Shown: one piece after another, positions 13,997 to 47,600 of the stretch
Layout: each line of letters opens with the position of its first letter
Numbering within the stretch: position 1 is the stretch's first letter
Assembly: GCF_009914755.1 (NCBI RefSeq)
Contig: NC_060935.1
Strand: one strand, 5' to 3'
Source: the human T2T-CHM13v2.0 reference genome, Homo sapiens
Length of the DNA: 64,000 bases
The notes under the pieces: model-generated
Databases searched by the model: none
Seen by the model: the letters and a program-made list of their open reading frames with translations, nothing else
Told to the model about the DNA's origin: nothing
Program-made: the position numbers and the translations under genes

Positions 13997-15483
13997 AATG
14001 TTAGTGATTGTGGGAAAGCCAAATATGTGCTCTCATTGAACATCATATCAGCTCTTAACTACTCAGGAGATGGCAGATTAAAGATCTTTCCAAGCTTTTC
14101 AGTTTTCCTTTTTTGGTTTTGTAACCAATATTTACAGAATTGTCTTCACTTATTGGAAGACAGGCCGGCAGGCTAGACAAAGAGAAGTGTTGAACCTTAT
14201 GCTGCTTCATTTCACTACATTTTTTAGTCATTTCTAAACTTCTTGAGCAAAGACTAAATTAAAGACTGTGAGTACTTAAAGGATTATTTTGGAGTTGAAT
14301 TAATGACACGATTCTTGTCACATATCAGTAGGTAGTACAGAAGATCAGCTTGACTGATTTAGGGGGCTTCTTTATTTAGGAGTGTTGATTTCCTGAAACT
14401 CCTCTGATAATCTGACAATTTACTGAAAACATGTTCATCTAATTTCACTTTATATTTCAACATTCATTTCTACTCACTTTTAGTGGTAATAATTTTAAGA
14501 TGTCATTAATATAGATTCTTAAATTTGCATAATTTATTTTTCTTCTCTTTTTACATCAGTCTTCAAAATTAGATGATAGCTTCCATACCATACTTTACAT
14601 AGCATATTTAATCATGATACTCATTAATCCATCAATTCATTCATTAGAGACATTTGCCTTTAACTAAGGAGATTTGGTTTATTTGACCTCATGGACATAA
14701 TTTATATTTCTCTTCAATGGCACCTACACATCACCTACTCAGCAGGAGTGCCTCTTGCACTTACCACTGCCCCTAAGCTGACTCATCTCACTTCCTTTAA
14801 TAGGTCTATTATGATAAATCTCAGTTCATGCTGTTTGTCTGAAGGTTCAACTGGCATTGCAAACACAGAAAACCAAAACAGAACCCACCATCCCTTTATT
14901 GTTACCTCCAATAAGTATGTAAGATCCCATACTGACCTCTTGATCTCGGGGGACAGACTCACATAGCAATCATTTATTTTGCCTGATATATGTTCTATAT
15001 CAAAATATTAGTCAAACCTTGTGAAATATACCTGTATAATACCTCTCCTTTGTTCTCCTCCCCTCAATTTCTACTGCTTCAATCTCAGGTCCAATCTTCA
15101 AAACTTCTCTTTATAATGTTTTCAATAGCCTTCTAATAGGCCTCCCAATCAGACCCCTTTTCCTTGTATTAAATTCATCACCTGATCATCAGTCTGAGCT
15201 TTATGAATATTTAATTTGTTTGCATCACTCTACTGCTCAAAACTATCTTTTGATCCTAATTGCCCATAGGAAAAAAAATAAACTTTTTAACCTAGGCCTC
15301 TAGATGATCATTTTTCAATCCTATTTCATCTGAACTTCCCTTTACTTCCTTTAGCCTTCACAACAACTAATTTACATATTTCCCTGGTTTCTCCCAAGCT
15401 CTTTCATGGATGTGCATTTGCTTGTAGTGTTCCTTCTGTCCTACAGATTTCTGCCTCTGGTTTCTTAGGACTAATCCAATTTT

Positions 15484-15870
15484 TGTGGCTGTGGCAGATA
15501 ATGTTTCTTCTGTGCCCTGAGCACTCATGATTCAAATGCACGCTGATGGTGTGCTGTAAGCTTCAGGGAGCTGAAGCCATAGGAACCAAAGGAACGGTGC
15601 TCAATCAATAACAGATAGAAATTGGAGGGAAAAGTATCCTGGTTTTCTTGCCCTTATGGGAGGACAACTCTGAAGTGCCTGCTTTGCCAGCCAGTGGAGG
15701 TCTCCAGCTGTCTTGCTCTCCATTTGCTCACAATGTCAATCTTCTCCTTAAGTCAACTTAATTGGTTTCCTTTTTCTTCCTGTCTCACTTCCCAGCTCCC
15801 CAACTAGGAATTTATGGGATCACCACTCAAATGATTCATATCAGATCCTGTATCAGGGCTAACATAAAGC
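15484..15870 (+). mobile_element. Old ERVL LTR, LTR16-like
   Basis: The 3' part ctgtctcacttccc...tgggatcaccactcaaat resembles LTR16 family ends. Heavily diverged. Confidence 0.5.
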
Positions 15871-15944
15871 AATAGTTATTCTTAAAAGTTACCTCCATGC
15901 AGCCTTCCTGGATTTCGGTAGCTGGGAGTGTTTTCCCTCATTTT

Positions 15945-15996
15945 GGATGCTTATGTGTTTCTCTTAAAGTGGATGCTTATGTGCTTCTCTTAAAGT
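15945..15996. repeat. 26-bp tandem duplication
   Basis: ggatgcttatgtg(t/c)ttctcttaaagt twice, one mismatch. Confidence 0.95.
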
Positions 15997-16017
15997 GTCA
16001 CCACTTACTGTATTTTG

Positions 16018-16020
<3 letters not shown>

Positions 16021-16052
<32 letters not shown>
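16021..16052. repeat. (TG)n microsatellite
   Basis: About 16 TG units. Confidence 0.95.
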
Positions 16053-44549: not shown

Positions 44550-45039
44550 GGCCAGACACGGTGGCTCACCCTGCAATCCCAGCACTTTGGGAGGCCAAAG
44601 TGGCAAGATCACCTGAGGCCAGGATTTCGAGCTACACCACGACACTCTATCCTGGATAACAGAGTGAGAATCTGTTTTTTTTTTTTTTTTTTTTTCTGAG
44701 ATGGAGTCTTGCTCTATCACCCAGGTTGGAGTGCAGTAGCATGATCTCTGCCTACTGGAACCTCTGTCTCTTGGGTTCAAGGGATTCTCCTTCCTCAGCC
44801 TCCTGAGTAGCTGGAATTATAGGCGTGCAGCACCATGCCTGGCCATTTTTTTTTTTTTTTTTTTTTGTAGAGACAGGGTTTCACCATGTTGGCTAGGCTG
44901 GTCTTGAACTCCTGACCTCAGGTGATCTGCCCACCTCAGCCTCCCAAAGTGCTGGGATTACAGGCATGAGCCACCATGCCTGGCCAAATCTGTCTTTTTT
45001 AAAAAAAGAAGAAAAAAATTACAACCATAAAAATAATAC
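44550..45039 (+). mobile_element. Internally deleted Alu (left-arm start fused to right-arm end), split by a second Alu
   Basis: ggccagacacggtggc...gatttcgag|ctacaccacgacactc...agagtgagaatctgt, with its tail at 45001-45039. TSD aaaagt(t/c)aataca. Confidence 0.8.
44676..44985 (-). mobile_element. AluS inserted into the end of the preceding Alu
   Basis: TSD aatctgt(t/c)ttttt. Middle A-rich linker expanded to a pure T run. Confidence 0.92.
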
Positions 45040-45129
45040 AAAAGTCAATACAGTATAAAAACTACTTACATAGCATTTACACATTGTATTTTATATTATA
45101 ATGATGATTTAAAGTATATAAGACATATG

Positions 45130-45326
45130 TTGGGGGTAGGAGGCAAGAAGAGGGAGAGCATTAGGACAAATACCTAATGCATGCGGGGCTTAAAACCTCA
45201 GTGATGGGTTGATAGGTGCAGCAAACCACCATGGCACACGTATACCTATGTAACAAACCTGCATGTTCTGTATCCCAGATTTTCAAGTAAATAAAGTAAA
45301 ATAAAAAAAGGAAAACAAAAAGAAAA
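45130..45326 (+). mobile_element. Short 5'-truncated L1PA (PA7/8-like) 3' end
   Basis: gggagagcattaggacaaatacctaatgcatgcggggcttaaaacct...gtaacaaacctgcatg plus an A-rich tail. Confidence 0.92.
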
Positions 45327-46159
45327 TATGCTTTTCTTTCTATTTGAAGAAATATATAATTTTTGAGTTGCATTGCCTCCTCATAGCCACATAACAAAAT
45401 ACACCTCCAGACATCTGAATCAATTGATCTGCTTGGGGTTGGTGGGAAAGTGTATGCCAAGAACAAAGATTTGGCACGGAGTAATATTAAACTGTTTATT
45501 CTGCCCATAATTAGAAATAGAAAGCTTTGTTTTCTGAAATGCTTTCAGAAAAATGATAGTAAAAATCTTCATCAGCATGGGCTGAATGCACCCCCCAACC
45601 CCTAACCCATACGTTCATCTACAACAGCAGAAGTATATGCATGGAGTTTATCTAAAATATTTGCAGCAGAATTTTGACATGCTCATGAATCCTCCAATTT
45701 TCTGCCAAAATGATTCAATTATTCAAACATTAAGAGAAAAACATGCAACCTAAGGGACAGCCTGAGAAATTTGATAGCCTGACTACTAGAGATGGAGTGC
45801 CCTTGGAGGCATCACCTTCTGTGCACAGCCCTGATGAAGTTTAGATCTCCACCAGAGAGACTGACACAGAAAGCTGTGCCCTTGCCATAGCATCAACAGT
45901 TTACACTGTCAGAAGAGCCTAGAGAGTCTACAGACCCCTCTGCACACTTTAACTAAAGACTCTCAGCCCATCAGCCTTTTGAGAAACAGAATATCTCCTA
46001 TCTTCTAAACATCTGAAAGACACAAGCAGGACCTGAGGAGTTGCTTAGGTAACTGACATATACTTACCTCTGCTGACAATGCTGGTATATCTGGGCGTAA
46101 GTGGACAGAGTGAACAATGAAAAATGATGTGTAATCAATAAAAGTAAATGTTTGAAAAA
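45327..46159 (+). other. Putative L1 3'-transduced segment
   Basis: Non-repeat-like sequence between the L1 tail and a second A-run. AATAAA at 46137-46142. Enclosed by TSD aagacatatg (45120-29 and 46160-69). Confidence 0.8.
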
Positions 46160-46250
46160 AAGACATATGCATAAATTATATGCAAATACTAGTCATTTTA
46201 TATAAGGCACTTGAGCATCTGCAGATTATGGTATCCAATTCAAGGAGCAA

Positions 46251-46253
<3 letters not shown>

Positions 46254-46292
<39 letters not shown>
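46254..46292. repeat. (TG)n microsatellite
   Basis: About 19 TG units. Confidence 0.95.
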
Positions 46293-46294
<2 letters not shown>

Positions 46295-47600
46295 ATGCGT
46301 ATTTCTAAATATATCTTGGTCGGTGAAGAGCAATTCATAGAGAAATTCATATTCTATAGGAAGTAATTCAAATTTCTGACCATGCCCTTCAAGAGTTTTG
46401 ATAATTTGAACCTCACCAACTTCTCCAGATTCTACCTTACTTAAATGAGCTCAGGGAGTGTCCTATATGCAACTTAGATTATATTGCTTGCTGATTTATA
46501 ATTTGCATGAACACAACACTTTCACATCTACATTGTCATTACTTATATTGTCACCTGTGCTTAGACTTCTTTCCCCTTTACGATATTTAATCATCCTATG
46601 CGTCATTCAAGGCCCCACACAAAGATATTTTCTTCCATGAAATTTTCTGTGACTGTTTAACTTGTTGGTGATTTCTTCTAATGTCTTACTCTTATCACAT
46701 TTTGTCATGTATTATCCTCATTTCAATCTTTGTTCTATATTACAGAAATAAAATTTTGAGCCAGTTGATTAGGGATACTTCATTGTTAATGTTTGCATAT
46801 ATTTTTTCAAAGAGTCCTCCATGTAGAAGGATCCAATAAAATATATACTACTTCATTATTTGTAGAGGGACTGCATAATCTAGTATTTTTTCATCAATGA
46901 TATCTAGGGTTGACGACTATTTTCATCATTTACTATCTGTCTTTGGAAAAATTACTTAAATTATGAACCTACTTTCTTGCTTGTAGAATGTCCACTACAC
47001 CTATATTTCTGAATAATTATGAGAATTAAATGATATTGTAAAATGTCTACCACATGTCTGATATATGCTAGTATATAATATTAGATATTGTTTAAAAATA
47101 AAAAATAAAATGAAGCTATAGTTATGCTTGCTATAATAAATAATTATTTAAAAGTAGGCAGAAATGTTGAAGACAGGCTGAATGGAAGTTTGTGTTTCTA
47201 CAGTTATTATTGTTGTTATTCTATTTCTTTGGGAAAACCAAATCTTGAGATGTCATGGCACTACTCCAGAGCTTTGAATTTTATGAAATTTCTATCCAAA
47301 GAAGGCGTTCAACATACTCTTGGAGGATCTTTTCATTAAAGACAAAAAACAAAAACAATGCAAATGAAATTGAAACATTGAAAGACTATTCCATGATAAG
47401 TGAGTCTATTGTATCTGCATTTAAAATAAACAGTTAGAAATATAAATTACGGCAGGACAGACATCAAAGGAGTGAAAAGAGTCAGGAAGGGTTCCAAGAA
47501 TGAGGAGGACAAGTCACAGGGTACAGGAGCCTGTTTTTCAACACTTCTGCCAGTCCAAACAAGGAAAGTGTAAACATCAAATTAAATAGTAACCACTAGA

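What the first reader, a model, noticed from the sequence alone, without database searches (positions are those of the whole stretch)
45120..46169. L1-mediated 3' transduction: about 830 bp of foreign unique DNA delivered into a MER2
Seen: a perfect 10-bp direct repeat aagacatatg (45120-29 and 46160-69) brackets a ~200-bp L1PA 3' end with its A-rich tail, then 828 bp (45327-46154) that resembles no repeat I recognise, then AATAAA (46137-42) 12 nt before a residual A-run. Removing the insert and one TSD rejoins the host MER2 seamlessly, and the junction (tat|aaga) fits an L1 endonuclease site. Established: L1 read-through past its weak poly(A) signal mobilises 3' flanking DNA. Inference: this block is a copy of another locus, tagging an old (PA7/8-era) source L1. 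Repeat annotation would show it only as unique intron sequence. It also adds a sense-strand poly(A) signal to the LUZP2 intron.
Basis: partly seen in the sequence, partly recalled or inferred. Interest (0 to 1): 0.8.

Follow-up and report, generated by a model that had tools for sequence, protein, structure and literature searches.

The report
L1-carried copy of chr18 DNA
An old L1 jumping-gene event pasted the tail of an L1 plus about 850 bases copied from chromosome 18 into a LUZP2 intron; this is an ordinary kind of event, except that the chromosome 18 donor site no longer holds the L1 that should have launched it.

Summary
A perfect 10-bp direct repeat (45120-29, 46160-69) brackets a 1030-bp insert that splits a multi-copy Tigger/MER2-like element. 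In 20 of 29 paralogous copies the two flanks are contiguous.

The insert has two parts:
- An L1 3' end, 45130 to about 45302, with an A-rich tail.
- About 850 bp with one other match in the CHM13 genome, chr18:70,792,359-70,793,172 on the minus strand, at 90% identity.

Homology ends at an A-run 12 nt after AATAAA, which is the first such hexamer in the chr18 donor.

One prediction failed: chr18 has no L1 next to the donor. Upstream of the donor lies ...ccaatttt|aaaaaagg..., a perfect L1 endonuclease target that looks like an empty site.

- **Best reading (about 0.75):** one L1-driven event 35-45 Myr ago, a 3' transduction from a source L1 allele that was never fixed or was later lost.
- **Rivals:** reverse-transcriptase template switching between a chr18 RNA and an L1 RNA (about 0.12), and two nested insertions (about 0.06).

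No sibling copies exist. The added poly(A) signal is 1 of 121 in the window. The event is of a known kind and of low interest.

The parts
44997..45119 (.). Left part of the host DNA-transposon fossil. It is Tigger/MER2-like; the family name comes from recall, not from a tool.
   Evidence: Left-flank hits in paralogous copies start at 44997-45068 and end at 45117-45129. The right-flank query gave 691 genome candidates.
45120..45129 (+). Target-site duplication, copy 1 (AAGACATATG). It is preceded by ...gtatat, so the target reads AT|AAGA.
45130..45302 (+). 5'-truncated L1 3' UTR end. The body runs to about 45292, followed by an A-rich tail aaagtaaaat.
   Evidence: 2573 candidates, 40 scored, 84-88% identity; alignment with 29 copies shows the canonical end ...cccagaacttaaagtaaaat followed by tails; mean identity 87.4% to 29 copies.
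45303..45311 (+). Junction: A7 then GG. It is ambiguous between the end of the L1 tail and the donor's aaaaaagg.
   Evidence: chr18 reads ccaatttt|aaaaaaggaaaagaaaat. The window carries a 6-nt extra unit, or 2 mismatches in the ungapped alignment.
45312..46154 (+). Copy of unique chr18 DNA (G000:C18:70792359-70793172, minus strand).
   Evidence: 90%, query 3-819. (764/851 identities). (reciprocal search: only these two places). (K2P 0.103).
46137..46142 (+). AATAAA poly(A) signal inherited from the donor.
   Evidence: it is the first AATAAA/ATTAAA downstream of the chr18 junction (offset 824). Homology ends 12 nt after it.
46155..46159 (+). Residual A-run: poly(A) tail and/or a copy of the donor's A6.
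   Evidence: chr18 has gtttggaaaaaa then tgatac; the window has gtttgaaaaa then the duplication.
46160..46169 (+). Target-site duplication, copy 2.
46170..46238 (.). Right part of the host DNA-transposon fossil.
   Evidence: matches cover window 46160-46238 at 85-93% in 39 other places; contiguous with the left part in 20 of 29 copies.

Best explanation
One L1-driven, target-primed reverse transcription event made the whole 1030-bp insert, roughly 35-45 million years ago.

**Template.** The template was a read-through transcript of an L1 that then sat on chromosome 18, inserted at ccaatttt|aaaaaagg. Transcription ran past the L1's own weak poly(A) signal and through about 830 nt of flank. It ended at the first AATAAA downstream.

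**Integration.** L1 endonuclease nicked the Tigger/MER2-like fossil in the LUZP2 intron at AT|AAGA. Reverse transcription started at the RNA's 3' end and stopped about 175 nt into the L1. Repair produced the 10-bp duplication.

**Fate of the source.** The source L1 allele on chr18 was never fixed, or was later lost. Today chr18 shows the empty site.

**Shown:** the duplication, the precise interruption of the host, the L1 end, the single chr18 paralogue, the end of homology at the poly(A) site, and the absence of an L1 at the donor.

**Inferred:** the former presence of a source L1 on chr18, and the date.
For: - **Single precise insertion.** A perfect 10-bp duplication sits exactly at the insert's ends. 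The host flanks are contiguous in 20 of 29 paralogous copies.
- **L1 at the 5' end.** The L1 3' end starts at the first inserted base and ends in a family-typical A-rich tail.
- **One donor.** The rest is 90% identical (764/851) to a single other place, on chr18. The reciprocal search, with 390 nt more upstream and 130 nt more downstream, matched the window over query 391-1232 only.
- **RNA intermediate.** Homology ends at an A-run 12 nt after AATAAA. That hexamer is the first AATAAA/ATTAAA downstream of the chr18 junction.
- **Empty-site signature.** The chr18 junction is TTTT|AAAAAA, the L1 endonuclease consensus. Only 7 of 243 A-runs of 6 or more in the window and the chr18 region are preceded by TTTT, and 37 of 243 by TT.
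- **Independent decay.** Each copy keeps CpGs that the other has lost. K2P is 0.103, or 0.090 without CpG-context transitions.
- **Literature.** Polymorphic, non-reference source L1s giving transductions are documented. I saw passages of PMC9311842: its Table 4 lists 51 non-reference against 217 reference L1 sources. [quoted passage not shown]
Against: - **No source L1.** The defining partner, an L1 directly upstream of the donor, is absent in CHM13. The nearest sense L1 ends are 7.8 kb and 5 kb away and are not close relatives of the window's L1.
- **Short junction A-run.** In the gapped alignment the pure A-run at the L1/donor junction is 7 nt, of which 6 are in chr18. That leaves almost no source poly(A).
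- **Short terminal A-run.** It is only 5-7 nt and could be fully templated by chr18's A6. Other L1 copies shown mostly keep tails of 10-30 nt.
- **No siblings.** No sibling transductions exist to corroborate a source.
- **L1 piece slightly more diverged.** The L1 piece is somewhat further from 29 genomic copies (87.4%) than they are from each other (90.9%). This could mean it is older than the block, but the sample is only 168 nt.
- **No orthologues checked.** Orthologous sites in other primates could not be examined.
Confidence: 0.75

Rival explanations
1. Template switch or RNA recombination produced a chimeric retrocopy. L1 reverse transcriptase began on a polyadenylated chr18 transcript that never had an L1 beside it. 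On reaching the A6 stretch it jumped onto the poly(A) tail of the L1 RNA in the same particle, copied about 175 nt of L1, and stopped. This is one event with one duplication.
For: - The donor has no L1.
- The junction A-run is only 7 nt and overlaps the donor's A6. This is what a microhomology-guided jump would leave.
- The same logic is used in print for 5' chimeras: absence of an L1 at the donor is taken to suggest recombination between two RNAs. I saw this in passages of bioRxiv 10.1101/2025.02.02.635956.
Against: - It does not explain why the donor junction is a perfect TTTT|AAAAAA endonuclease site; 7 of 243 A-runs have TTTT before them.
- It needs an independent chr18 transcript, for which there is no evidence here: no ORF of note and no Rfam family.
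- The chimeras in the passages I read have the L1 as the 3' part, not the 5' part. From recall, catalogued chimeras number in the hundreds and 3' transductions in the thousands.
Confidence: 0.12
2. Two nested events. A short L1 3' end with a poly(A) tail inserted first and made the AAGACATATG duplication. Later a 5'-truncated retrocopy of a chr18 transcript landed inside that A-tail, with its own duplication made of A's.
For: - A-runs of about 7 nt flank the chr18-derived block on both sides.
- A-tails are known preferred L1 endonuclease targets (recalled).
- The L1 piece looks slightly more diverged than the block.
Against: - The 3' side would have to hold the retrocopy's poly(A), the duplicated A's and the rest of the L1 tail. 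Only 5-7 A's are there.
- It requires coincidence of the donor's A6 at both ends of the homology.
- It needs two rare events at one spot and an independent chr18 transcript.
Confidence: 0.06
3. Retrocopy of a host-gene transcript from a locus not represented in CHM13, whose 3' exon already contained the L1 piece joined to this sequence. Alternatively, a DNA-level capture during break repair.
For: Only that the source configuration (L1 plus block) is found nowhere in this genome.
Against: - The target-site duplication, the end of homology at the poly(A) site and the endonuclease-like target all point to L1 machinery.
- The chr18 site looks like an intact empty site.
- There is no trace of a third copy.
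Confidence: 0.04

Closest known systems
L1 3' transduction (read-through of the L1 poly(A) signal into flanking DNA)
   Same: - L1 3' end with an A-rich tail, then unique DNA ending in AATAAA plus an A-run, all inside one target-site duplication.
- The unique DNA maps to one other locus.
- The first downstream poly(A) signal is the one used.
   Different: - The donor locus carries no L1 in this genome.
- Both A-runs are very short.
- There are no sibling insertions.
Transductions from non-reference or polymorphic source L1s in present-day humans (PMC9311842; passages seen)
   Same: The offspring insertion points to a donor place where the reference assembly has no L1.
   Different: In those cases the source is still segregating and can be found in other people. 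Here the event is tens of millions of years old, so the source allele would be extinct in the human lineage.
Template-switch or RNA-recombination chimeric retrocopies (U6/L1, Alu/L1, mRNA/L1; bioRxiv 10.1101/2025.02.02.635956, passages seen)
   Same: - Two RNAs from different loci are joined head to tail in the same orientation.
- They lie inside one duplication at an endonuclease-like site.
   Different: - In those chimeras the L1 is the 3' part and the cellular RNA the 5' part. Here the order is reversed.
- The donor junction here looks like an L1 target site.
Processed pseudogene or retrocopy
   Same: A 3'-terminal copy of a transcript ending at its poly(A) site, flanked by a duplication.
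   Different: - It carries an L1 end at its 5' side.
- There are no ORFs or exon junctions.
- No gene is known to me at the donor, and no annotation of chr18 was available.

Membership tests
L1 3' transduction | The whole insert is flanked by one target-site duplication at a precise break in the host sequence. | tested here: met
   Perfect 10-bp repeat. The host flanks are contiguous in 20 of 29 paralogous copies.
L1 3' transduction | The 5' part is the 3' end of an L1, in sense orientation, ending in its A-rich tail. | tested here: met
   (2573 candidates, 40 scored, 84-88% identity). (alignment of ends and tails).
L1 3' transduction | Non-L1 DNA follows the tail directly and ends with a poly(A) signal and an A-tail. 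| tested here: met
   AATAAA at 46137-42, with the A-run 12 nt later. The A-run is only 5-7 nt and may be templated by the donor.
L1 3' transduction | The non-L1 DNA is a copy of a unique locus elsewhere. | tested here: met
   One paralogue, on chr18, at 90% identity.
L1 3' transduction | At the donor locus the segment lies immediately 3' of an L1 in the same orientation. | tested here: not met
   No L1 abuts the donor in CHM13. The site reads TTTT|AAAAAA, like an empty target. Membership is therefore inferred, not proven.
L1 3' transduction | The orthologous target is empty in species that diverged before the event. | not testable with these tools
   No other primate genome is held; the genome search header says the genome has no relatives here.
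Template-switch chimeric retrocopy | The parts derive from RNAs of two different loci that were never adjacent in DNA. | tested here: inconclusive
   The parts are not adjacent in CHM13, but a lost L1 allele cannot be excluded.
Template-switch chimeric retrocopy | The 3' part is the primed RNA (usually L1, Alu or mRNA) and the 5' part is the RNA jumped to (usually a small nuclear RNA or Alu). | tested here: inconclusive
   Here the 3' part would be a chr18 RNA and the 5' part an L1 end. The passages read describe L1 as the 3' partner only.
Tigger/MER2-type DNA transposon (host) | A multi-copy interspersed repeat whose other copies are uninterrupted at this point. | tested here: met
   691 candidates, 40 scored. 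20 of 29 copies are contiguous. The family name is recalled; no repeat library was available.

The most novel reading that the evidence does not exclude
The chr18 donor never had an L1. On this reading the insert is a mirror-image chimeric retrocopy, with the L1 3' end as the 5' part and a cellular RNA 3' end as the 3' part. L1 reverse transcriptase would have made it by jumping from a trans-mobilised chr18 transcript onto the poly(A) tail of its own L1 RNA. Such products would normally be counted as 3' transductions, so some 'transductions without a source' would in fact record template switching.
Probability: 0.12. Interest if true: 0.45.

Novelty: new member of a known kind. Interest (0 to 1): 0.2.

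Why it matters
It matters little by itself. 3' transduction is textbook L1 biology, and this copy sits deep in an intron with no sign of function. It has no ORF and no RNA family match, and its poly(A) signal is 1 of 121 in the window.

Its modest value is as a clean, datable example where the donor survives as an apparent empty site. Such cases could be used to count how often ancient source L1s were never fixed. They could also show how many 'transductions' are really template-switch chimeras.

Tried and rejected
- **Source L1 near the donor.** I mapped L1 and Alu pieces over 20.8 kb of chr18 with 29 L1-bearing loci as probes and with the window's own L1 piece. Only unrelated L1 ends turned up: 7.8 kb upstream (sense), 3.2-4.0 kb upstream (antisense) and 5 kb downstream (sense, with a 5' inversion).
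- **Sibling transductions.** None were found with either copy as query.
- **Known RNA family in the insert.** The only hit was a sub-threshold SCARNA7 match (21 bits against a gathering score of 65, E 0.012), lying mostly in the host repeat. I rejected it.
- **Coding origin.** The longest stop-to-stop frame lying wholly within the chr18-derived block is 72 aa; I did not pursue it.
- **Processed pseudogene of a chr18 transcript with an L1 in its 3' UTR.** Rejected, because chr18 has no L1 there.
- **Splicing of an upstream L1 onto the block.** Rejected, because the L1's very end and tail abut the block.
- **Classic transduction papers.** They were not held under the ids I tried, so their frequencies are cited only as recalled.
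- **L1 subfamily.** I did not assign one, because no repeat library was available and I built no consensus.

Full report
**What is in the sequence**

The 10-mer AAGACATATG lies at 45120-45129 and 46160-46169. The window holds three copies against 0.31 expected, and 1 of 100 shuffles reached three. The weight of the repeat therefore comes from its position, not from its count.

The 1030 bp between the two copies start with an L1 3' end at the first inserted base. A genome search with 45130-45326 gave 2573 first-look candidates, of which 40 were scored, all at 84-88% identity. I aligned the window with 29 of these copies. Their usual end is ...cccagaacttaaagtaaaat, followed by A-rich or (TAAAA)n tails. 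The window reads ...cccagattttcaagtaaataaagtaaaataaaaaaagg.

AATAAA is at 46137-46142. Twelve bases later comes a five-base A-run, and then the second copy of the 10-mer.

**The host is precisely interrupted**

The right flank (46160-46262) is a multi-copy repeat: 691 candidates, 40 scored, covering 46160-46238. By recall it is the end of a Tigger/MER2-type DNA transposon. No repeat library was available to name it.

I examined 29 paralogous copies:
- In 20, the window's left flank (ending 45117-45129) and right flank (starting 46160-46168) map within -5 to +11 nt of each other. This is as expected if they share a single copy of the duplicated 10-mer.
- In 2, the flanks lay 62 and 380 nt apart.
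- In 7, the left flank gave no hit.

**The foreign block is a copy of chromosome 18**

A search of the whole CHM13 genome with 45327-46154 found two places, and both candidates were scored. One is the query itself. The other is G000:C18:70792359-70793172 on the minus strand, at 90% identity.

Pairwise alignment gives 764/851 identities over window 45312-46161. The reciprocal search used the chr18 copy with 390 nt more upstream and 130 nt more downstream. It again found only chr18 and chr11, and the window matched query positions 391-1232 only.

Three conclusions follow:
- The block is unique DNA at this sensitivity.
- There are no sibling copies.
- Homology is sharply bounded.

At the 3' side it stops in an A-run. 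chr18 reads aataaaagtgtttggaaaaaa|tgatac, and the window reads aataaaagtaaatgtttgaaaaa|TSD. That AATAAA is the first AATAAA or ATTAAA hexamer downstream of the chr18 junction, at offset 824. An end at a poly(A) site, a target-site duplication and an L1 end together indicate an RNA intermediate handled by L1 machinery.

The chr11 copy is the derived one, because it sits inside the duplication that splits the host repeat.

**Boundary correction**

In fact chr18 reads ccaattttaaaaaaggaaaagaaaattgc where the window reads aaaataaaaaaaggaaaacaaaaagaaaatatgc. The donor-derived part therefore begins at 45304-45312. The exact point depends on whether a 6-nt extra unit or two mismatches are assumed. Most of the supposed L1 tail is donor sequence.

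**The failed prediction**

It does not.

I rebuilt 20.8 kb of chr18 around the donor and probed it with 29 L1-bearing loci and with the window's own L1 piece. In the orientation of the insert, the L1 pieces found are:
- a sense L1 3' end 7.8 kb upstream, 81% identical over 43 nt to the window's L1;
- an antisense L1 end 3.2-4.0 kb upstream;
- a sense L1 end 5 kb downstream, with an inverted 5' piece.

The rest of the hits are Alus and an SVA-like element. Immediately upstream of the donor is unique DNA ending in ccaatttt.

**Which mechanism**

The donor junction TTTT|AAAAAA is the textbook L1 endonuclease target, with the L1 in the orientation required. Among 243 A-runs of six or more in the window and the chr18 region (both strands), only 7 are preceded by TTTT and 37 by TT. 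This is what an empty site of a former L1 insertion should look like.

Source L1s that are polymorphic and absent from a reference genome are documented for recent human transductions. Table 4 of PMC9311842 lists 51 non-reference against 217 reference L1 sources; I saw passages. The abstract of PMC4381410, of which I saw the start in a search listing, states that most new inserts arise from young polymorphic sources. Most such alleles are later lost.

I therefore rank a 3' transduction from an extinct chr18 L1 allele first, at about 0.75.

Several facts weigh against it:
- The source is not there.
- In the gapped alignment the junction A-run is only 7 nt, with 6 present in chr18.
- The terminal A-run is 5-7 nt and may be templated.
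- Other L1 copies shown mostly retain longer tails.

The main rival is a template switch from a chr18 transcript onto the poly(A) tail of an L1 RNA, at about 0.12. It explains the short junction A-run, but not the endonuclease motif. A recent preprint uses absence of an L1 at the donor as an argument for RNA recombination in 5' chimeras, while noting that an ancestral variant may have existed (bioRxiv 10.1101/2025.02.02.635956, passages seen).

A two-step nested insertion into an L1 tail (about 0.06) fits the A-runs on both sides. It needs three A-tracts to fit into 5-7 bases, and two rare events at one spot.

**Age**

The two copies differ by K2P 0.103 (757 of 837 aligned sites identical, 50 transitions, 30 transversions). 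Without the nine CpG-context transitions the value is 0.090. Each copy keeps CpGs that the other has lost.

At recalled long-term primate rates of about 1.1-1.3e-9 per site per year, this gives roughly 35-45 Myr. The subfamily itself was not tested.

The L1 piece is 87.4% identical on average to 29 genomic copies, which are 90.9% identical to each other.

**Function**

- No Rfam family reached threshold.
- No frame wholly within the chr18-derived block exceeds 72 aa.
- The sense-strand AATAAA is 1 of 121 on the + strand of the window.

Nothing suggests an effect on LUZP2.

**Verdict**

It is an ordinary member of a known class with a mildly instructive twist.

No published description of this particular insertion was sought beyond the four searches listed. 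None of them was aimed at this locus.

Noticed in passing
L002:1-1358 (chr18:70790859-70792216), read on the minus strand: About 130 nt downstream of the donor's poly(A) site lies a composite element in the same orientation. It has CCCTCT-type hexamer repeats, Alu-like antisense pieces, a GC-rich tandem array and a retroviral-like end. By eye it is an SVA (name recalled). One probe locus matched its start at 95%. It must be much younger than the transduction.
   Followed up: no
chr18:70787132-70787709 (chr18rc 15464-16041): A sense L1 3' end whose first ~105 nt are inverted relative to the rest. This is the pattern expected from twin priming.
   Followed up: no
window 46255-46293: A (TG)n microsatellite of about 19 units lies shortly after the last base that matches the host repeat (46238).
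   Followed up: no
window 46143-46300: A weak Rfam match to SCARNA7 (21 bits, gathering score 65, E 0.012), mostly over the host DNA-transposon fossil. It is probably chance or repeat-derived similarity.
   Followed up: no
window 45486-45491: The window copy has ATTAAA where the chr18 donor has ATTGAA. This second poly(A)-like hexamer arose, or was lost, after the copying.
   Followed up: partly
window 44660-44985: A full-length antisense Alu (T-run, right arm, T-rich linker, left arm), recognised by eye, directly abuts the left end of the host repeat. Another Alu end lies at 44600-44660.
   Followed up: no
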